Shown here one piece after another: positions 2,013-14,662 of a DNA stretch of 64,000 bases (within the stretch, counting starts at the first letter, position 1; every line of letters starts with the position of its first letter). Position numbers and translations under genes: made by a program. The stretch is from Escherichia phage vB_EcoM-ZQ1, in sequence record MW650886.1, one strand, 5' to 3'. The notes under the pieces were generated by a model. The model saw only the letters and a program-made list of their open reading frames with translations, was not told the DNA's origin and made no database searches.

Positions 2013-5000
2013 AACTTACCTAGTGCGATAGCGACGTACGGCGACGTTGTATTCCCGACAACGTTATACAGCCCAATCGGCGTTCGGTCTAATGATGGTA
2101 GCCTTGCCCCTGCAACACCACCAACACAGCCCAAAGGTAATGGGGTACTAAAGTTTAAATTAAGACGCTCAAAGATGGAGAAAGCCAGCGTTGGCACTAC
2201 CGGCACCAGTTCAATTATTTGAGGTCTTGTGCTAGCCGGAATGGAAACATTGTAAAACGATGCGAATGTTGTCCCGTCAGCCCTTTTCAATAACGGAGTC
2301 ACCGTCATGCCTGACTCCACTGGACCAATCATCAGGAACAGCCTGGTGATACCTGACAATTCAGTATTAACGCTGAAATACATATTACTGCTACTGGAGG
2401 TAGAGTTCACTCCAGAGAGCGAACCGAAACACGGAGTATCTTTTATGATACTTTGCAACCAATTAGCTTTAAAATTAGTTACCCTTTGTGTTCTGTTTTC
2501 CTGGGAGATAAAGAAATTCTGCCGGTGGATGCTGGTTACAACGTTCTCACCACTTCCGGAGTCTGGGACCTCATCAAACGATATTAACTCGTACACCCCA
2601 TCGGACACTTTCTTAGCCGACGCGTAGCAGCTGAAATAATCACCTTGATACACTATCTGTGATGTACTGAATGTGCTTAGATCGTAGGTAATGGTCAAGC
2701 TTACATTGCTGCGGTACATCGGAGTCACAGGACGTGAAGTAGTACCGGTAATTACCAGTGGGTCATCGAAGTCAGTGTACGCCTCAATTCGCGGGCCAGC
2801 GTACACATAATTGCTAACCAGTATTGACCAGCCGTTCGCCCCGGTTAGGTCATTTGTTTTACAAATAGCGATACCACCTGCGGAGCTACCAGTATTTGCT
2901 CTGATTACAGCAATCATTTGCCCGCGATAGTATCCAAGACAGGTTTCATTAATCAGGCTCCGCCCTGGAAAATCACTTATCTGAAAACTTTTAGTAACTG
3001 ACCATGTAGTACTTGCATTCAGAAGTACATCTGATGAAGTTACAAGCTGAACTTCTGTACCTGTTATACTGTAACGAGAAATAATAAGTTTGCCATCCGG
3101 TGTTGTTAATACGTTACCCCACTGATAATAATCATCCGTTGTTACGATGTCAGATTTGCTTGTAAATGCACCAGAGTTATTGAGATCTACGTACCCTACA
3201 ATAGTTTTTTTATAGGTATCTGCGGCGACGTCATGCAGCGTAAAGGCGATAATTAACTGATTACCTGGGTTGCTAACCGAAATGCTTGGCTCTTTTGCCG
3301 CTATACCCGCAGGTGGCACATATTCCCATATAACAGAAGCACTCCCGTCCTTGAGAATTTCTGCGATGCAGGCACTGTGCTTACCTGTTGCCTGATCGAT
3401 GTGTGCTGGCGATCGACGGAAACATAAAAGATTACGACCATTCCAGAATACGGTGTTACCAAATCCGTCATACTGTACCGTGGTATCTGTGTCTTTTAAT
3501 GACGTGAGGGTTGAAACGGCGGTTTTTAATGATGACATTGATTCTTTGGAAGTCACATCAACTGATGAATCCAATATAGATATTTCGTTATATATTGTAT
3601 CGATATTCTCCTGCACAGTTTTCCCATTACTGGAACCTGTAATCTGGGCACCATTATCTGATAATAAATCACTTCTTAAAGAAGCATCACCAACGCTAAC
3701 CCACGCACCAAGACCAGTACCACCAGATGCTTCAGGGGTTGAGCCAGATGGGACAGTTTTTGGAAACTCCCCTTCCCAGCGGTATTTACCTGTTGTATGG
3801 GTAAGTAATTCATTTTTAACATTAAGTGTAGCACCAGAATCAAATGTCCCGGACAATGTGACGTACTCTTCACGAGATACAGCCAATTCCCCAAGATCTA
3901 CAGAACCCGCTGAATGCACCAGTATAGCGGAAGAACTAAGACTGACAGCAGTAGTACCAGGGACAATATCAGCAGGCAAGGGATAAGCCCTTTGCGTCTC
4001 CTTGTCATAAATAACTTTATACCCACTTAACGCAGCACCAACACTAAAATAAACGACCTCTGTATCTTTAACATTGGCTACACGAGCCACTTCCCGCAAA
4101 GTATAATCAATTTGATTATAGATGTTTGGTGTTCCATTGATAATTACAACAACTTCATCCTCTGGTTCCAGTTCTTGCGCCAGAGTGATTTTACTGGTTA
4201 ATGGATCGAATGTGAATCCCAGATTTTTATACTGGCGACTTCCGTTTATATCAATGGCCGGAACATCATCAACAACGACGTCCAACGTGATTTCGGTTTC
4301 ACCACCAATCGCTGAACCCCCATTATAGACCCAAGTAATCGTAGAAGAACTAGAACCACCGCCATTACCCAATTGAATAGGAGTATATTCAATCACCTGA
4401 AGTTCTGTGTTGGCTGGCAAAGAAGGACTGAAAGTGATTACATTCCCATCTAGTGAATATTTGGATTCCGCAAGACGTTTCCCATCAGCATACACGTCCA
4501 CGATTGTTGGTGGAGTATTGAGAGCGACAGAACTTGTTTCAGACGCCAAAATTTTTGTAAAGATTTCACGACTGTAGACACGACCTTGGCCAAGACCGAC
4601 GCCGGATGTGATAACCCAACCTTGTTCAGGTCCAGACCAAGTGAACGTTGCTGATACGTTATCAGTTGTTATAGCCATGTCTTCAGTGGAGCCATACAAA
4701 TTATTTCCAGAAGGAGACACGGTCAATGGGTAAGTGGCAAATTTCCCATAAGCATCACAAATAGTAACGGAATCCCCAATACGCGTAGGGGAAGGGAGAA
4801 CCACTGTAGATGCCCCTGTGGTATTATTAATGAGATAGCCTCGCCCTTCAGTGAGCGTTGCCGTAGAGGCATGCGGAAGGACTTCCCAGCGGATACCACC
4901 GCCACCCAGCGGCAACCATCCACCATTTTCATAGAAGCCCTCAAATTCGTCGGAGTCGGCATTGTAGCGAACGGAAGACGGGAGTCCTGTGCTGGCATTA

Positions 5001-9941: not shown

Positions 9942-9998
9942 CGCTTTATTCAATAAAGAATTGCAGTAAAGTTAGTTGCATGGAAGGGAGGGAACACT

Positions 9999-10145
9999 AT
10001 GTTTTACATGATGTTACTCCTCATCCTTCTGATCGGGATTACCTTTACTCTCCTGGGTCTACCCGATCAGTCCGGTAAACAGTCGCCCACTTCGGCGCAT
10101 CCGGTTTTGTGCGAAGGTTCGTCCGCACTGCTGTGGGCAGTGTAG
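9999..10145 (+). CDS. Small hydrophobic peptide (47 aa, one predicted TM helix)
   Basis: ATG preceded by SD GGAGGG at 7 nt; MFYMMLLLILLIGITFTLLGLP...; below the 60-aa cutoff of the ORF track. Confidence 0.3.
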   Translation: MFYMMLLLILLIGITFTLLGLPDQSGKQSPTSAHPVLCEGSSALLWAV

Positions 10146-11923
10146 CTCAAAGAGGAGAGGACTTTTCAAATTAGCTGGGCTGCAGTAAAGTATTAAGCGT
10201 GAGGCGAACAACGCATCGAGTTAGGCATCTAAAGCCGACCTCGCTAATCCCAGTCTCAGGGGCATGCGTGAATAGAGGCGTGATATCCACCTTGCATGGT
10301 GTCAGTGGACGCACTTGACCGTCGGAGAACGAAACTCCCTGTTGTAGCGTGATTAGCTCAGAATCAGAGAGCACCCTGTTGGCAAGTCGACACCAACATA
10401 TAAGGGGAGGTCGGGGGCGCTAATCTCCATCACGCCGGCAACATTATGAGTCTTCCACAGAGGGTTCATAATGTTGCGTCAAAGGGCAACAAGGTTCCTG
10501 TTGGTTGAATTAACTTGATTCATAGTTCCTACTGATCTTCCCGGATTCGAAGGAGCACCAACAGGCGAGGCCGGATGCGTAAGTTCCGGTAAATCGATGG
10601 TGATACCCTCGCCAACAAAAATAAAAGGTTTTATCAATAACGGGTTACAAAGTATAGTTAACCCACTGAAGCGAAAAGCTGTTTGGGCATTAGACAAACA
10701 CTTCGATGTGAACCCAGGACATGGCGTCTTGTGCTCAAACAGGTTTTCGTTTTCGTTGTGAGTGACTTTGCGGGTTTTTAGAAACTGACCAAGCAAATAA
10801 CTGCTAATGATTCCGAAGTTCTGATGGCGGCGTAACAGCCTATAAGTCAGTGAGGTCTTCCGATTCCTCATCACCAAATTCGGCGCACTAAAATAGACGG
10901 GAGGGTGTGATTAATAATCTCCCGTCGACAATGCCGTTATATCTGACTGTCCAAAGGGGATAAGCTCCTGAGTAAGCAGAGGTGGGTTGCCTAAGTCAGA
11001 TGGGATGTAAGGTCAGCGCTGGCCAAGCATTTGGGTTCGACTCCTAAAAACGGCTCCACATCTTTGAGGATATTCTCACGAGTATCTTGAAAGATGTGAG
11101 CGAAGTCTTGCCATCAGCCCTGATCCCTGGCAGGTGAAGGGCACACAAATCGAAGTGCCTTGACAATTTATCTTAAACCCAAAGGTTGATCTACAAATTG
11201 GACGGCCAATCCGGTGGACGATAACAGCATATTGGGCTATACTGTTGAGTCAGGGCACTTCGATTTGTGAACTTGAGAGAGCGTTGGGTGAAATAGACCA
11301 TGCCTTGCAGATTGCGATGCCTACACATTCCGGACACTGGTGGGCACCAAGAAGAACTCAGTAGCAGACGAGCCATCAGGGTTAGCTACCCGGCGCGGCG
11401 AGGACTGGGAGGCCGAACTAAGGGGAAACCCGAGACAGGCGTAGTATTCTCAAGTTCACAAAATGAAGAGCATTTAAAGAGTTCGATTCTCTTTCAGGCC
11501 ATTCGTGGTGTGATGTGAGTCATGAATGTTCTTCATCTTTGGGTGATTCTATGTTGCCGGGCTATCAACCCATGCTTGCTAGAGCAACCAGCCAGCCTCG
11601 TTTGGTCCGAGCGTTAGAGGACAAGTTGCTTCTACATGGAAGCTGCGAGTTGCGACATTGGTTGCAACTTTGATGGCTCTGGATTTTATAAACCATGTCT
11701 ATGGGTGACGCGGGATCTTTAGTACCAGAGCTATCAAAGTTGTGTCCAACCCGATCTTACAAGCCCGTATCCCGGTCTGGTTAAGACTTGTAAGTGGAAA
11801 GCCCTGGAAAAATAAACGCCTGTGGCGAGGCTATGGTGCAAGCCAAAGACCCACAGAAGCGCATGCCGTGAGGCAGCACAAACAGGCATGCATGAACTGA
11901 TCATGTACAAACGGGATAAAGGG

Positions 11924-11952
11924 TTGACAGTCCTTGGTTGGTACACAATAAT
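11924..11952 (+). promoter_or_regulatory. Possible sigma70-type promoter upstream of tRNA-Met (TTGACA ... AATAAT)
   Basis: Consensus -35 TTGACA at 11924..11929; AT-rich -10-like element follows, but spacing to the tRNA 5' end is tight. Confidence 0.25.
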
Positions 11953-11954
11953 TT

Positions 11955-12031
11955 GGTCCTGTAGCTCAGTCGGTTAGAGCAGTGAACTCATAATTCATTG
12001 GTAGTTGGTTCAAATCCAACCAGGATCACCA
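11955..12031 (+). tRNA. tRNA-Met (anticodon CAT; could also be Ile-lysidine type)
   Basis: Hand-folded cloverleaf: acceptor GGTCCTG/CAGGATC, D-stem GCTC/GAGC, anticodon loop CTCATAA, T-arm GTTGG-TTCAAAT-CCAAC, encoded CCA. Confidence 0.85.
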
Positions 12032-12283
12032 TATTAAGGGGTGTGAAACATGACACTCCGACAAACACAGTAAGCGTTGCAGCCAGCTGTGTATAAAATG
12101 GGATGACTCCACATCGGAAACGATGCCCCAACTTCCAGAAATGGTCGGGCGCAAAGCCTGTAAAGTTCCAGGAGATCGAACCAGAAGGCACTGGTCGCCA
12201 GTTAACCAATCGGCGCTGAGAAGCGCGGGGAGTTGGGCTACGGCAGATCAAATGCTCAATCGGGTGTGAAGCCCGTCCAAATT

Positions 12284-12372
12284 GGAAGGTTGCCCGAGAG
12301 GTTTAAGGGACTCGACTGCTAATCGAGTGGGGCTTTTAGCCCCCGAAGGTTCGAATCCTTCACCTTCCGCCA
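12284..12372 (+). tRNA. tRNA-Ser (anticodon GCT), type II with long variable arm
   Basis: Acceptor GGAAGGT/ACCTTCC, D-stem CCC/GGG, anticodon loop CTGCTAA, variable arm TGGGGCTTTTAGCCCCC, T-arm GAAGG-TTCGAAT-CCTTC, encoded CCA. Confidence 0.85.
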
Positions 12373-12588
12373 AATTACGGTCGTGACTTCCTGAAGAGTT
12401 AGAAGATGTGCATGTCGACTCTCTCGTAATCGGGTGTTTAGGAAGTTAAGAAAATCGCGGCGAGGATAGTGAAATGCAAATAGCTTTCTCTACGTCGACG
12501 ACTTCAGGTTCGACTCCTGACGCGCTCTCCCATAGGGTAGTACCAGTGCAAGCGTGTAGTCTTTCAACCCATCCCATCGATGTGGTGT

Positions 12589-12620
12589 AGCCGGATATCC
12601 TATCCGGCTTTCTTTTTATC
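12589..12620 (+). terminator. Intrinsic terminator downstream of the tRNA cluster
   Basis: Stem AGCCGGATA / TATCCGGCT with loop TCC followed by TTCTTTTTATC. Confidence 0.6.
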
Positions 12621-12741
12621 CCTGTCTTATTATCTTCTTATCGACCCAAGCATGTCCTCCTTTATCGTAGTTTGTTCAATGATACAAAGGGGGTTTAAAA
12701 TTTAACCGTTAACCCCCTATCATAGATTTGAGGATACACTA

Positions 12742-13398
12742 ATGCGTAATGTTTCTATCTGGGAATTGAACGAAGTGATTTCCCATGACACCCCTCCAAT
12801 TGTCAGACTCTTCCGATACAAGGGTGTCAAGCGCACTCTGAATGAGTTCCTGTCGCCTGTTTACGTCTACCGTGATGGCGGGTTCTTCTGCCGCGATAAA
12901 AACATCCCGAACCTTGGTATGACGTTTGATTTGAGTATCAAAGGCCAGGTTGTATTGATGGGTTATGGTAGCCTGGAACAATCTGAGAAAGGCCAGGGCG
13001 CTCCACTTATGGTCTTCGGTTCGTTTGAACAAGCCGTGCACTGGCTGATCAGAAACGGATATGATTTCTATGGCGAAGAAAGCGCCAATTGGCGTCGTCG
13101 CAAGGTCAAGTCTGTTGATCTGGTGGATTTGAATCTGATGTACCAGGCCATGGCTCGCGAGTACGAAAAGAATCTCGTCAAGCCTGTCGCTCAGGAGAAC
13201 AATGTTGTTAACGACGCAACTGAGTCTTCTCATCATGACGTGAACATCGTTCCAGCCTGTGAAACGAAAGCGCCGACACCACCTACTCCTCCGACCAGTC
13301 GTGTTCTGAATGATCAGGGCGCTCCGGTAAAACAAAAGGTCAAGAAGCCGACTTTCATGGAAAACATGATGAAGTTCCTTCGTCTGTTCAAGAAGTAA
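12742..13398 (+). CDS. Hypothetical protein
   Basis: 218-aa ORF with SD GAGGAT; the overlapping antisense ORF 12739..13335 is judged a shadow. Confidence 0.45.
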   Translation: MRNVSIWELNEVISHDTPPIVRLFRYKGVKRTLNEFLSPVYVYRDGGFFCRDKNIPNLGMTFDLSIKGQVVLMGYGSLEQSEKGQGAPLMVFGSFEQAVHWLIRNGYDFYGEESANWRRRKVKSVDLVDLNLMYQAMAREYEKNLVKPVAQENNVVNDATESSHHDVNIVPACETKAPTPPTPPTSRVLNDQGAPVKQKVKKPTFMENMMKFLRLFKK

Positions 13399-13468
13399 TC
13401 CGAGATTCTCCTTTTCTATACTCCTGTAGATACACTATGATAAGCCAATGTCTACAGGAGAAAATAGA

Positions 13469-14662
13469 ATGAACAAGACCATCTTCGATATCCTTTCCCT
13501 CGACCGCAACCTGGTCCATTGGGAAGATTATCTCTACAAGCACACCCCGTGCGAACTTGTCGTCAACCACGAAACCAACCAGCAGGTCTGGTTCAAGCGT
13601 GAAGATTATTTTGCGCCGCTGTCCAATTATGCAAATGGCCAGCAGGGCATCAACGGCAGCAAACTCCGCCAGGCCATCTGGTTGATGGTTGAGCACCTCA
13701 AGGCCGGAGGCTCCCCTGACATCATCCATGGTACTGTCGTTGGTAGTCCGCAGTCCCCTATGGCGACGGCAGTCTCTCGGCACTTCGGCGGCAAGACAAC
13801 CACTGTACTCGGAGCGACCAAACCCACCACCTGTATGAACCATGAAATGGTGAAAATGAGCGCCTGGTTCGGTAGTGAGTTCAACTTCGTCGGCTCGGGT
13901 TACAACAGCACGATCCAGCCGCGCTGTAAGAAGTTGATCGAACAACAGAATCCAAAGGCGTATTATCTGGAGTATGGTATCACCCTCGACCATACAACCC
14001 ACTCCCCTGAGCGCATTGCTGGGTTCCATATGCTGGGTGGCGAGCAGGTTGCCAACATTCCTGATCACATTACTGACCTGATCATCCCAGCCGGATCGTG
14101 CAACTCTTGCACAAGCATCCTGACCGGGCTGGCAATGCATCCGAAGCCTAATCTGAAGCGTGTGTATCTGATTGGCATCGGTCCGAACCGCCTGGACTTC
14201 ATTGAGAGCCGTCTGCGCATCATCGGCAAACATGCCAATCTGCCGCACATTGTCGACTTCACCCGTCGTTATCACGACAACCCAGACTATGTACACGGCA
14301 AGAAGGAGCTTCAGCATGCCTCTAAGAGCGTTTCGCTGGCTGGCCTCCTAAGTGGTATCAGGCAGAAGGAAGAGCCAGAGGTCGTGCTTCCTCGCTTTGA
14401 GGTACACCATTGGGATCTTCATACCACTAATTGGGTTCGTTATAATGACCTGATGGAATATCAGTGGGGTGATATTGAGTTGCATCCTCGCTATGAAGGC
14501 AAGGTCATGACCTGGGTTCAGCAACACAAGCCCGAGTTGCTCAACGAGAACACTCTGTTCTGGATTGTGGGCAGCAAGCCGTACATTGAGCCAATGAAGG
14601 CTGCATGTCCTGAACTGGCTATCCCCGAAGCAGTACCTGTGAACGGATTCACCCCTTCCTGA
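13469..14662 (+). CDS. PLP-dependent enzyme, fold type II (ACC deaminase / D-cysteine desulfhydrase / tryptophan synthase beta-like)
   Basis: Motif GINGSKLRQAIWLM...GTVVGSPQSPMATAVSRHFGGKTTTV resembles the GGNKxRKL...QSNHxRxxAAxA signature of the family; start moved to the ATG with SD AGGAGA. Confidence 0.55.
   Translation: MNKTIFDILSLDRNLVHWEDYLYKHTPCELVVNHETNQQVWFKREDYFAPLSNYANGQQGINGSKLRQAIWLMVEHLKAGGSPDIIHGTVVGSPQSPMATAVSRHFGGKTTTVLGATKPTTCMNHEMVKMSAWFGSEFNFVGSGYNSTIQPRCKKLIEQQNPKAYYLEYGITLDHTTHSPERIAGFHMLGGEQVANIPDHITDLIIPAGSCNSCTSILTGLAMHPKPNLKRVYLIGIGPNRLDFIESRLRIIGKHANLPHIVDFTRRYHDNPDYVHGKKELQHASKSVSLAGLLSGIRQKEEPEVVLPRFEVHHWDLHTTNWVRYNDLMEYQWGDIELHPRYEGKVMTWVQQHKPELLNENTLFWIVGSKPYIEPMKAACPELAIPEAVPVNGFTPS

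What the first reader, a model, noticed from the sequence alone, without database searches (positions are those of the whole stretch)
12373..12620. About 215-nt spacer between tRNA-Ser and the terminator may hold another small RNA
The two tRNAs are followed by about 215 nt with no ORF before a strong intrinsic terminator (12589..12620). The spacer contains a T-arm-like element (TCAGG-TTCGACT-CCTGA near 12497..12515) but no acceptor pairing. It may be a decayed tRNA or a stable RNA co-transcribed with the tRNAs.
Basis: seen in the sequence. Interest (0 to 1): 0.3.

Follow-up and report, generated by a model that had tools for sequence, protein, structure and literature searches.

The report
Phage tRNA-like structured RNA gene
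The "empty" spacer after tRNA-Ser holds a conserved 154-nt RNA gene with the acceptor stem and T-arm of a tRNA but two long arms in place of the D and anticodon arms; it has no annotation or Rfam family, is shared by unrelated enterobacterial phages, and its function is unknown.

Summary
The window comes from an Ackermannviridae phage about 98% identical to Escherichia phages YX22 and AV101. The T-arm is real but lies at 12504-12520.

The element spans 12379-12532 and folds as a four-way junction: acceptor stem, a 61-nt arm, a 47-nt arm and a canonical T-arm, followed by the invariant tail UCCCA. Across 18 sequences from five clades, 98.5% of cells are paired, against 43-50% in slid controls, and 32 of 38 pairs show compensatory changes.

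It occurs in several Ackermannviridae genera and in Klebsiella SSU5-like phage-plasmids. In one phage it sits between two tRNA genes with 5-6-nt spacers, like a tRNA cistron. It is not coding, not a decayed tRNA and not in Rfam.

Its layout and position match T4 species 1 RNA (RNAC), but no specific homology is detectable. The most likely reading is a stable tRNA mimic released by tRNA-processing enzymes. What it binds is unknown. The remaining 56 nt are a trailer hairpin before a covarying terminator.

A tmRNA-like tag block upstream deserves separate follow-up.

The parts
11955..12031 (+). tRNA-Met(cat), the first recognised cistron of the unit
   Evidence: ARAGORN; Rfam tRNA model, 70.9 bits.
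12284..12372 (+). tRNA-Ser(gct) with an encoded CCA at 12370-12372, immediately upstream of the element
   Evidence: ARAGORN; Rfam tRNA model, 56 bits.
12373..12378 (+). 6-nt linker AAUUAC between the tRNA-Ser CCA and the element
   Evidence: Sequence. The same CCA-AAUU junction follows other units here and in T4.
12379..12532 (+). The tRNA-like structured RNA: whole element, 154 nt
   Evidence: Models R1 and R2 score it 180 and 169.6 bits. Homologues occur in five clades. Covariation is shown.
12379..12385 (+). Acceptor stem, 5' strand GGUCGUG. The U at 12381 is a window-specific change from G and gives a U-C mismatch.
   Evidence: It pairs with 12521-12527. In alignment A2, helix 1 is 99.2% paired and 4 of its 7 pairs have double changes. 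Relatives read GGGCGTG.
12386..12446 (+). Arm P2, in the D-arm position. It has a 7-bp stem (12386-12392 with 12440-12446). An inner hairpin ends in the invariant loop GUGCAU (12408-12413). An internal loop AAUCGGGUGUUU (12428-12439) carries a conserved UGG.
   Evidence: All 7 pairs of helix 2 have double changes, and helices 3-5 also covary. The loop is invariant in 18 of 18 sequences.
12447..12454 (+). Purine-rich linker UAAGAAAA between P2 and P3
   Evidence: Alignment A2.
12455..12501 (+). Arm P3, in the anticodon-arm position. UCG+CGGCG (12455-12462) pairs with CGUCG-A-CGA (12493-12501). The apical conserved sequence is GUGAAAUGCAAAUAGC (12469-12484).
   Evidence: All 7 pairs of helix 6 have double changes. 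AUGCA(A/C) at 12474-12479 is invariant.
12504..12520 (+). T-arm UCAGG-UUCGACU-CCUGA
   Evidence: Helix 8 is 98.9% paired and 3 of its 5 pairs have double changes.
12521..12532 (+). Acceptor 3' strand CGCGCUC (12521-12527) followed by the tail U-CCCA (12528-12532)
   Evidence: CTCTCCC is invariant in the first ten-sequence alignment and in all 18 sequences of A2. The conserved BLAST block ends exactly at this A.
12533..12588 (+). 3' trailer with hairpin ACCCAUC-CCAUC-GAUGUGGU (12567-12586)
   Evidence: It is conserved even in Limestonevirus, which lacks the element: 87% over 12533-12616.
12589..12620 (+). Intrinsic terminator of the unit
   Evidence: Scan result. The stem covaries between clades: CCGGAU/AUCCGG, CCAGGU/ACCUGG, CCCGAUC/GAUCGGG.

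Best explanation
Positions 12379-12532 (+) are a gene for a tRNA-like non-coding RNA. It is the last cistron of the tRNA operon.

Shown: it folds into a four-way junction. A 7-bp acceptor stem stacks on a canonical 5-bp T-arm. Two long arms take the places of the D arm and the anticodon arm.

Inferred:
- The RNA is cut out of the polycistronic transcript by the host tRNA-maturation enzymes. RNase P would cut at G12379, which in most homologues follows a U at -1. 3' nucleases would trim up to the C-rich tail UCCCA. The product would accumulate as a stable RNA of about 150 nt.
- The conserved UGG in the P2 internal loop docks on the T-loop to form a tRNA-like elbow.
- The two invariant loops, GUGCAU and AUGCAA, kiss and lock the two long arms together.

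Proposed function (inferred, low confidence): it does not decode. It acts as a tRNA mimic that occupies or titrates a host tRNA-binding factor, such as a tRNA-targeting defence nuclease or a translation or ribosome-rescue factor, to the phage's benefit. This would explain why it moves on its own between unrelated phages without any partner protein gene.

The rest of the spacer is a trailer hairpin and the operon terminator.
For: Structure:
- RNAalifold recovers the cloverleaf-like fold on a MAFFT alignment that was not fitted to any structure.
- On 18 sequences from five clades, 98.5% of cells are paired against 43-50% when partners are slid. 32 of 38 pairs have changes on both sides. The covariation score is 0.615 against 0.09-0.12 for slid controls.

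Conservation and spread:
- 230 phage records match the spacer, and the conserved block ends exactly at the CCCA tail.
- The family is found in Agtrevirus-like phages, Kuttervirus, Klebsiella Taipeivirus and KWBSE43-6.
- It is also in about 110-kb SSU5-like phage-plasmids and in 29 Klebsiella plasmids of PLSDB.

It behaves as a tRNA-type cistron:
- In KWBSE43-6 it lies between tRNA-Tyr and tRNA-Gln with 6- and 5-nt spacers.
- Its order relative to tRNA-Gln is inverted in Klebsiella phage HMGUkp5.

It moves alone and is phage-specific:
- No protein gene travels with it.
- It is absent from 5,426 E. coli genomes.
- Among 100,044 species genomes only a 607-bp contaminant contig carries it.

It is not coding: the ORF starting at the conserved ATG is 2 to 41 codons long in different clades.

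Precedent: T4 RNAC (species 1 RNA) is a 139-nt stable RNA at the end of the T4 tRNA operon. It has a T-arm and the same arm layout in its minimum-free-energy fold.
Against: - No expression or processing data were available, so stability and the RNA ends are inferred.
- Single-sequence folding of the window copy is no better than shuffled sequence: z = 0.05 for the element and -1.28 for the whole spacer.
- The 3' tail is UCCCA, one C longer than a tRNA N73-CCA end. This argues against a normal aminoacylatable end.
- The window copy has an acceptor-stem mismatch at 12381.
- The loop-loop kiss rests on invariant bases, so it has no covariation support.
- The element is dispensable. Limestonevirus lacks it, and a P46FS4-like phage keeps only its last 17 nt or so.
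- Nothing in the data identifies the binding partner.
Confidence: 0.6

Rival explanations
1. The element derives from tmRNA. It would be a small RNA made mostly of a tmRNA tRNA-like domain (TLD). It would interfere with or supplement host trans-translation, for example by titrating SmpB, possibly together with the tmRNA-like tag block upstream.
For: - If the ends are read so that the RNA finishes in C-CCA, the third acceptor pair is G-U and pairs 2-5 (G-C, G-U, G-C, C-G) match E. coli tmRNA. This holds in four of the five clades.
- The P3 loop GAAAUGCAAAU resembles the resume-codon context of Rfam's tmRNA consensus, cAUAAaUGCaAACGAu.
- A tag-like block occurs in the same RNA island and lies directly upstream of the element in SSU5-like plasmids. 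The block and the element are the only two modules shared by those islands.
- Precedent: mycobacteriophage DS6A carries a TLD-only tmRNA, and such molecules inhibit tmRNA, perhaps by titrating SmpB (PMC4131195).
Against: - Neither ARAGORN nor any Rfam tmRNA model reports the element, even at E<=10.
- Similarity to E. coli ssrA is not significant: 135 of 300 shuffles match the score for the window copy and 19 of 300 for Det7.
- The fold is a four-way junction with a closed 7-bp arm in the D-arm position, not the three-way junction of a TLD.
- Kuttervirus has A-U at the critical pair.
- No conserved tag frame or stop codon follows the GCA.
- Predicted pairing between the tag block and the element is no better than for shuffled sequence.
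Confidence: 0.15
2. The element is a passive structured spacer. It would be a cis-acting processing or stability scaffold of the tRNA operon, with no function of its own after excision.
For: - It is always found inside tRNA clusters.
- It is dispensable in some lineages.
- Other inter-tRNA spacers in these phages are also structured and conserved.
Against: - The loop sequences GUGCAU and GUGAAAUGCAAAUAGC and the 3' tail are invariant across clades whose stems have changed completely.
- It has been transferred between unrelated replicons as a discrete module, independently of the flanking tRNAs.
- Its position within the arrays varies.
Confidence: 0.15
3. The element is a decayed tRNA pseudogene.
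For: - It has a T-arm and an acceptor stem but no anticodon arm recognisable by ARAGORN or Rfam.
- The window copy has an acceptor-stem mismatch.
Against: - Compensatory substitutions occur in 32 of 38 pairs across five clades.
- The 154-nt length and architecture are maintained in every clade.
Confidence: 0.03
4. The spacer encodes a small protein: the 38-aa ORF at 12474-12590, or the 43-aa ORF on the minus strand.
For: - The ORFs exist.
- GAGGA lies 7 nt upstream of the ATG in the window copy.
Against: - The ORF is 2 aa long in L013, 5 aa in HMGUkp5, and 28-41 aa elsewhere with unrelated C-termini.
- Substitutions follow base-pairing, not codon positions.
Confidence: 0.02

Closest known systems
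Bacteriophage T4 species 1 RNA (annotated as rnaC in NC_000866, with species 2 as rnaD)
   Same: - It is a small stable RNA of 139 nt encoded at the 3' end of the phage tRNA operon, just before the terminator.
- It contains a canonical T-arm (CCGGG-UUCGAAU-CCCGG) closed by an end-to-end stem.
- Its minimum-free-energy fold has one long arm, an 8-nt linker, a second arm and the T-arm, the same order as here.
- Its function is unknown (PMC3014915, PMC9697503, PMC12685909).
- Ackermannviridae and T4-like phages are placed in the same order, Pantevenvirales, in one record's taxonomy line.
   Different: - No specific homology is detectable. The five-clade model R2 scores RNAC 18.0 bits, below ordinary tRNAs at 19.9-22.2 bits, and only through the T-arm and acceptor stem.
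- There are no shared loop motifs.
- The T4 RNA has no CCCA tail.
- BLAST finds RNAC only in T4-type phages of about 165-194 kb: 751 records, 684 of them at 95% identity or more.
tmRNA tRNA-like domain, including TLD-only phage versions such as mycobacteriophage DS6A
   Same: - Both have an acceptor stem plus T-arm without a decoding anticodon.
- A G-U pair lies near the top of the acceptor stem.
- A UCUGG-type loop could contact the T-loop.
- TLD-only RNAs are known in a phage and inhibit tmRNA (PMC4131195).
   Different: - It is not detected by ARAGORN or the Rfam tmRNA models.
- It is a four-way junction, not a three-way junction.
- It has no tag reading frame.
- The tail is UCCCA, not ACCA.
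- The G-U pair is not universal.
Canonical tRNA (Rfam RF00005)
   Same: - 7-bp acceptor stem, 5-bp T-stem and a 7-nt UUCGAnU T-loop.
- It sits in a tRNA array with tRNA-like spacing and a -1 U / +1 G junction.
   Different: - It is 154 nt long.
- The D arm is replaced by a 61-nt arm and the anticodon arm by a 47-nt arm with a 12-16-nt loop.
- The tRNA models do not report it.
Bacterial Y-RNA-like RNAs (YrlA) with a tRNA-like domain (comparison from my own knowledge)
   Same: It is a non-coding RNA that mimics part of a tRNA, and such RNAs are sometimes phage-borne.
   Different: - No Rfam family other than chance-level matches hits the element.
- No Rsr/Ro60 gene was seen near it. The flanking ORFs tested are a PLP-dependent enzyme, proteins of unknown function and a baseplate wedge protein.

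Membership tests
tRNA | 7-bp acceptor stem stacked on a 5-bp T-stem with a 7-nt T-loop | tested here: met
   Helices 1 and 8 are 99% paired and covary. The loop is UUCGACU.
tRNA | D arm of 3-4 bp, and an anticodon arm of 5 bp with a 7-nt loop that presents an anticodon | tested here: not met
   These positions hold a 61-nt arm and a 47-nt arm with a 12-16-nt apical loop. Neither ARAGORN nor Rfam RF00005 reports the element, even at E<=10.
tRNA | 3' end of the form N73-CCA | tested here: inconclusive
   The encoded tail is U-CCCA, invariant and one nt too long in the 7-bp register. The mature end is unknown.
T4 species 1 RNA (RNAC) family | Stable RNA of about 140 nt encoded at the distal end of the phage tRNA operon | tested here: met
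   For position and size only: 154 nt between the last tRNA and the terminator. Stability could not be tested.
T4 species 1 RNA (RNAC) family | Closing stem plus T-arm with two internal arms | tested here: met
   The T4 RNAC minimum-free-energy fold compared with the consensus fold here. The T4 side rests on a single-sequence prediction.
T4 species 1 RNA (RNAC) family | Detectable sequence or profile homology to T4 RNAC | tested here: not met
   R1 gives 18.9 bits and R2 18.0 bits, no better than ordinary tRNAs. BLAST with RNAC finds only T4-type phages.
T4 species 1 RNA (RNAC) family | Excision by RNase P and other host RNases from the tRNA precursor | not testable with these tools
   This needs in vitro cleavage assays or RNA-end mapping.
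tmRNA | Acceptor stem with G3-U70 (the AlaRS identity element) and an ACCA end | tested here: inconclusive
   The G-U is pair 2 in the RNase-P register and pair 3 only if the end is read as C-CCA. It is A-U in Kuttervirus.
tmRNA | mRNA-like region with a resume codon, a conserved tag frame and an in-frame stop | tested here: not met
   The frame after GCA is not conserved and most clades have no stop before the 3' end.
tmRNA | Recognition by tmRNA covariance models or ARAGORN | tested here: not met
   There is no tmRNA hit on 11800-12800 at E<=10, and ARAGORN finds none. Similarity to ssrA is not significant.
Any Rfam 15 family | A match at or near the gathering score | tested here: not met
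   Only the two tRNAs pass. The other matches are chance-level.

The most novel reading that the evidence does not exclude
The element is one member of a previously unrecognised toolkit of mobile 'giant tRNA-like' RNAs. These are exchanged as free-standing RNA modules among unrelated enterobacterial phages and phage-plasmids.

In this reading it works together with the co-transferred tmRNA-like tag block (window 10757-10900, tag ANDSEVLMAA). Together they would manipulate host ribosome rescue or tRNA-directed immunity, for example as a TLD-like decoy plus a tag-bearing RNA, that is, a tmRNA-type system split into separate genes.
Probability: 0.12. Interest if true: 0.85.

Novelty: new member of a known kind. 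Interest (0 to 1): 0.5.

Why it matters
Stable tRNA-like RNAs co-transcribed with phage tRNAs have been known in T4 for decades, as species 1 and 2 RNAs. Their role is still unknown.

This element is a second, unrelated family with the same design. Unlike the T4 RNAs it has deep covariation support, invariant loops that point to specific contacts, and clear horizontal transfer between lytic myoviruses and temperate phage-plasmids of Klebsiella, Salmonella and E. coli. That makes the question of what these RNAs do testable by comparative genetics and simple knock-outs.

In practical terms, more than 200 phage genomes, many of them candidates for therapy or biocontrol, and at least 29 clinical Klebsiella plasmids carry an unannotated RNA gene here.

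Tried and rejected
- Rfam at gathering and permissive thresholds: nothing except the two tRNAs.
- Homology to T4 RNAC: rejected as unsupported, because RNAC scores below ordinary tRNAs with the broad model.
- Similarity to E. coli tmRNA (GTGCATGCCGA in the PK1 region, and the T-arm): not significant against shuffles.
- A two-piece tmRNA formed by the tag block and the element: predicted duplex energies are no better than for shuffled sequence, and no conserved alternative acceptor partner was found by eye.
- Small-ORF reading: rejected.
- Single-sequence thermodynamic support: absent.
- Looser pattern scans: the viral-contig, bacterial-genome and metagenome scans returned no new clade. The extra matches were tested with R1 (viral and genome scans) or inspected by eye (L202, metagenome scan) and judged chance. 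The one real extra hit is a 607-bp contaminant contig.
- A shared neighbouring protein gene that might be a partner: none found.
- Literature searches for a description of this RNA in Ackermannviridae or SSU5-like plasmids: none found.

Full report
**Origin and layout**

The window is from an Ackermannviridae (Aglimvirinae) phage. The region 11800-12800 is 98.2-98.6% identical to Escherichia phages YX22, PC3, A221, RPN242 and AV101 (annotations).

ARAGORN and Rfam find tRNA-Met at 11955-12031 and tRNA-Ser(gct) at 12284-12372, and nothing else in the 64 kb. The only terminator-like site in 10500-13500 has its stem at 12589-12609 followed by a T-run.

Its ORFs are 25-43 codons long. The one that starts at a conserved ATG is 2, 5, 28, 29, 38 or 41 codons in different relatives, so it is not a gene.

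**The observation**

The T-arm motif is real but lies at 12504-12520. Perfect T-arm-like hairpins are rare in the window. There are six on the + strand, and five of them fall in 11031-12520.

The statement that there is no acceptor pairing is wrong. GGUCGUG (12379-12385) pairs with CGCGCUC (12521-12527), directly 3' of the T-arm, in six of seven positions. The mismatch is caused by a T at 12381 seen only in this window. AV101, YX22 and L141 read GGGCGTG and pair perfectly.

**Conservation**

A BLAST of the spacer finds 230 phage records. There are two blocks:
- Positions 11-160 of the query (12383-12532) are conserved in Kuttervirus (75-80%) and in Klebsiella Ackermannviridae (about 71%). This block ends exactly at the A of CTCTCCCA.
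- Positions 161-244 (12533-12616) are conserved at 87% in Dickeya Limestonevirus, which lacks the first block.

Under nearly all matches the records carry no annotation.

**Structure**

RNAalifold was run on a plain MAFFT alignment of ten sequences from three clades. It gives a four-way junction:
- a 7-bp acceptor stem;
- directly after it, a 7-bp stem (P2) closing a 61-nt arm;
- an 8-nt linker;
- a second arm (P3);
- 2 nt, then the T-arm, then the acceptor 3' strand.

A covariance model built from that alignment (R1) found two more divergent clades. One is phage KWBSE43-6 at 34 bits. The other is a group of contigs of about 110 kb at 75-80 bits.

On the 18-sequence, five-clade alignment the counts are as follows:
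- 98.5% of cells form standard pairs, against 43-50% when the 3' partners are slid by 1-3 columns.
- 32 of 38 pairs have changes on both sides.
- The covariation score is 0.615, against 0.09-0.12 in the slid controls.
- No shuffle out of 500 reaches the observed values on four of the five measures.

That alignment was fitted to the model, which favours the structure. However, the same helices came out of the unfitted alignment, and whole stems are replaced between clades. For example, P2 is ACUUCCU/AGGAAGU in most clades and GGCCUUU/AAAGGUU in the phage-plasmids.

Single-sequence energies give no support: z = 0.05 and -1.28. The evidence is comparative.

The following are invariant in all 18 sequences:
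- the T-loop core;
- the 3' end CUCUCCC;
- the hexaloop GUGCAU (12408-12413);
- AUGCA within GUGAAAUGCAAAUAGC (12469-12484).

The two loops are complementary over 5 bp, and over 6 bp in the Klebsiella clade, where A becomes C. A loop-loop contact is therefore plausible but unproven. The P2 internal loop carries a conserved UGG in a D-loop-like context. I infer from established tRNA architecture that it contacts the T-loop.

**It behaves like a tRNA cistron**

In KWBSE43-6 the element lies between tRNA-Tyr (which ends at 2952) and tRNA-Gln (which starts at 3113), with spacers of 6 and 5 nt. In Klebsiella phage HMGUkp5 the order is tRNA-Gln, then the element, then the trailer. In the window it follows tRNA-Ser after AAUUAC.

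The base before the first G is U in most clades, the usual context of an RNase P site (established knowledge). Processing of the neighbouring tRNAs alone would release it.

It is also dispensable. Limestonevirus lacks it, and a P46FS4-like phage keeps only about its last 17 nt.

**Distribution**

The contigs of about 110 kb encode proteins 70-72% identical to those of SSU5, Cyrano and Klebsiella phage-plasmids. The element is 97-100% identical in 29 Klebsiella plasmids of 44-114 kb, unannotated in all of them.

Between the RNA-rich island of the window and that of the phage-plasmid only two modules are shared: this element and a tag-like block. No flanking protein is shared. The window's neighbours are uninformative: a PLP-dependent enzyme and proteins of unknown function.

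The element is absent from 5,426 complete E. coli genomes. A pattern scan of 100,044 species genomes returned only a 607-bp contaminant contig as a true hit. Viral and metagenome scans added no new clade. The RNA is therefore specific to phages and phage-plasmids, and it has been transferred horizontally as a free-standing module.

**Comparison with known RNAs**

- **Rfam.** Rfam 15 has no family for it.
- **T4 species 1 RNA.** The nearest known thing is T4 species 1 RNA (rnaC). It is a 139-nt stable RNA at the end of the T4 tRNA operon, with a T-arm and the same order of arms in its minimum-free-energy fold. Its function is still unknown (PMC3014915, PMC9697503, PMC12685909). Homology is not demonstrable: the broad model R2 scores RNAC at 18.0 bits, below ordinary tRNAs. 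BLAST finds RNAC only in T4-type phages. So the element works like RNAC in design and position but is not a member of that family.
- **tmRNA.** A tmRNA origin was considered because of three features. There is a G-U pair near the top of the acceptor stem. The loop AAAUGCAAA resembles the resume-codon context of tmRNA. A tag block is a neighbour. However, tmRNA detectors do not see the element and similarity to ssrA is not significant. The junction is four-way, there is no tag frame, and no predicted pairing with the tag block exceeds shuffled controls. A TLD-only tmRNA in mycobacteriophage DS6A, and inhibition of tmRNA by such molecules (PMC4131195), keep this open as a minority reading.

**Mechanism: what is shown and what is inferred**

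Shown:
- a conserved four-way-junction RNA with a tRNA-type acceptor and T-arm module;
- placement like a tRNA cistron;
- horizontal transfer without a protein partner;
- no coding capacity.

Inferred:
- excision by RNase P and 3' nucleases;
- accumulation as a stable RNA;
- elbow formation and the loop-loop kiss;
- action as a tRNA mimic on a host tRNA-binding factor.

The extra C in the invariant UCCCA tail suggests that the RNA is not meant to be charged like a tRNA. That favours a decoy or binding role over decoding. I give about 0.8 to 'a processed, stable tRNA-like RNA gene'. I give about 0.3 to the decoy function specifically.

**The rest of the spacer**

Positions 12533-12588 form a trailer with a conserved hairpin (12567-12586). 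Positions 12589-12620 are a terminator whose stem covaries between clades. I found no evidence for a second independent RNA there.

**Verdict**

The element is a new, undescribed family of a known kind of phage RNA. It is of moderate interest in itself. The interest would be higher if the link to the tmRNA-like tag block proves functional.

Noticed in passing
window 10757-10900 (tag frame 10803-10835): This is a block resembling the mRNA-like region of tmRNA. The frame GCT AAT GAT TCC GAA GTT CTG ATG GCG GCG TAA encodes ANDSEVLMAA*. It has no start codon, and its stop codon lies in a small hairpin loop.

Relatives encode ANDDVVLMAA, and three of the differing codons are synonymous (GCU/GCA, AAU/AAC, GCG/GCU). 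The block gives sub-threshold Rfam hits to tmRNA_permuted: 22.3 bits here and 28.9 bits in Salmonella phage FSL SP-058, against a gathering score of 47.

It is present, unannotated, in 402 phage records. These include Ackermannviridae, N4-like phages of about 71 kb and Klebsiella and E. coli phages of 46-48 kb. It also lies directly upstream of the element in SSU5-like plasmids. ARAGORN finds no tmRNA, and no tRNA-like domain could be assigned to it.
   Followed up: partly
window 10934-11062: This is a second tRNA-like unit with the same layout. GCCGUU(A) pairs with (A)AACGGC, and there are two internal arms, a T-arm at 11031-11047 and a U-CCA tail. It scores weakly with the element's models (11 and 13.8 bits). 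It is 94% identical in KWBSE43-6.
   Followed up: partly
window 11477-11493 (possible unit about 11411-11501): A third T-arm that is not part of a tRNA, AAGAG-TTCGATT-CTCTT, followed by TCAGGCCA. It may be another tRNA-like RNA. ARAGORN does not call it.
   Followed up: no
window about 9950-12740: About 2.7 kb have no ORF of 70 codons or more that looks real, and relatives carry no annotated CDS here. The stretch appears to be an island of structured RNAs around just two bona fide tRNAs. It is 72-94% identical to the corresponding region of KWBSE43-6.
   Followed up: partly
window 12032-12283 (Met-Ser spacer): This spacer is conserved with the Tyr-Ser spacer of AV101 and Det7, and partly with LIMEstone1. 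Compared with AV101, the window lacks tRNA-Asn, tRNA-Tyr and two structured spacers. The junction (12040-12068) keeps remnants of them, including a hairpin GGGGUG...CACUCC. The spacer ends in the hairpin CGGGUGUGAAGCCCG followed by UCCA-AAUU just before tRNA-Ser, the same CCA-AAUU junction seen after T4 RNAD.
   Followed up: partly
window 12381: There is a T where the closest relatives (AV101, YX22, L141) have G. It creates a U-C mismatch in the third acceptor pair of the element. It could be a strain polymorphism or a sequencing error.
   Followed up: yes
window 11924-11952: The best sigma-70-like site (TTGACA, 17 nt, AATAAT; 11 of 12 matches) ends only 2 nt before the first base of tRNA-Met. 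A normal start site would then fall inside the tRNA. The real promoter of the unit may lie further upstream.
   Followed up: no
L005 2400-2488 (Det7) and L130 3118-3206: An odd tRNA-like gene sits between tRNA-Ser and the element in Kuttervirus and P46FS4-like phages. It is annotated 'tRNA-OTHER, possible 15 bp intron', and ARAGORN reports a 2-nt anticodon. The window lacks it.
   Followed up: no
L007 1843-1980 (Dickeya phage LIMEstone1): A different tRNA-like unit follows tRNA-Met directly. GUCGGGU pairs with GCCCGAC, and it has a T-arm-like AGGG-UUUGAAU-CCCU. It contains AAAUGCAAACUAA, that is, GCA AAC followed by a stop. It scores only 12.6 bits with R1.
   Followed up: partly
L193 (NZ_JAALLN010000140.1, 607 bp, Flavobacterium poyangense assembly): This contig carries the element at 174 bits. 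It is almost certainly contamination of that assembly by an Agtrevirus-like phage.
   Followed up: partly
L181 (Salmonella phage FSL SP-058, KC139517.1): The tRNA coordinates annotated in this record do not agree with ARAGORN calls on the same stretch. ARAGORN finds only tRNA-Leu at 30-115, whereas the record lists six tRNAs at other positions.
   Followed up: no
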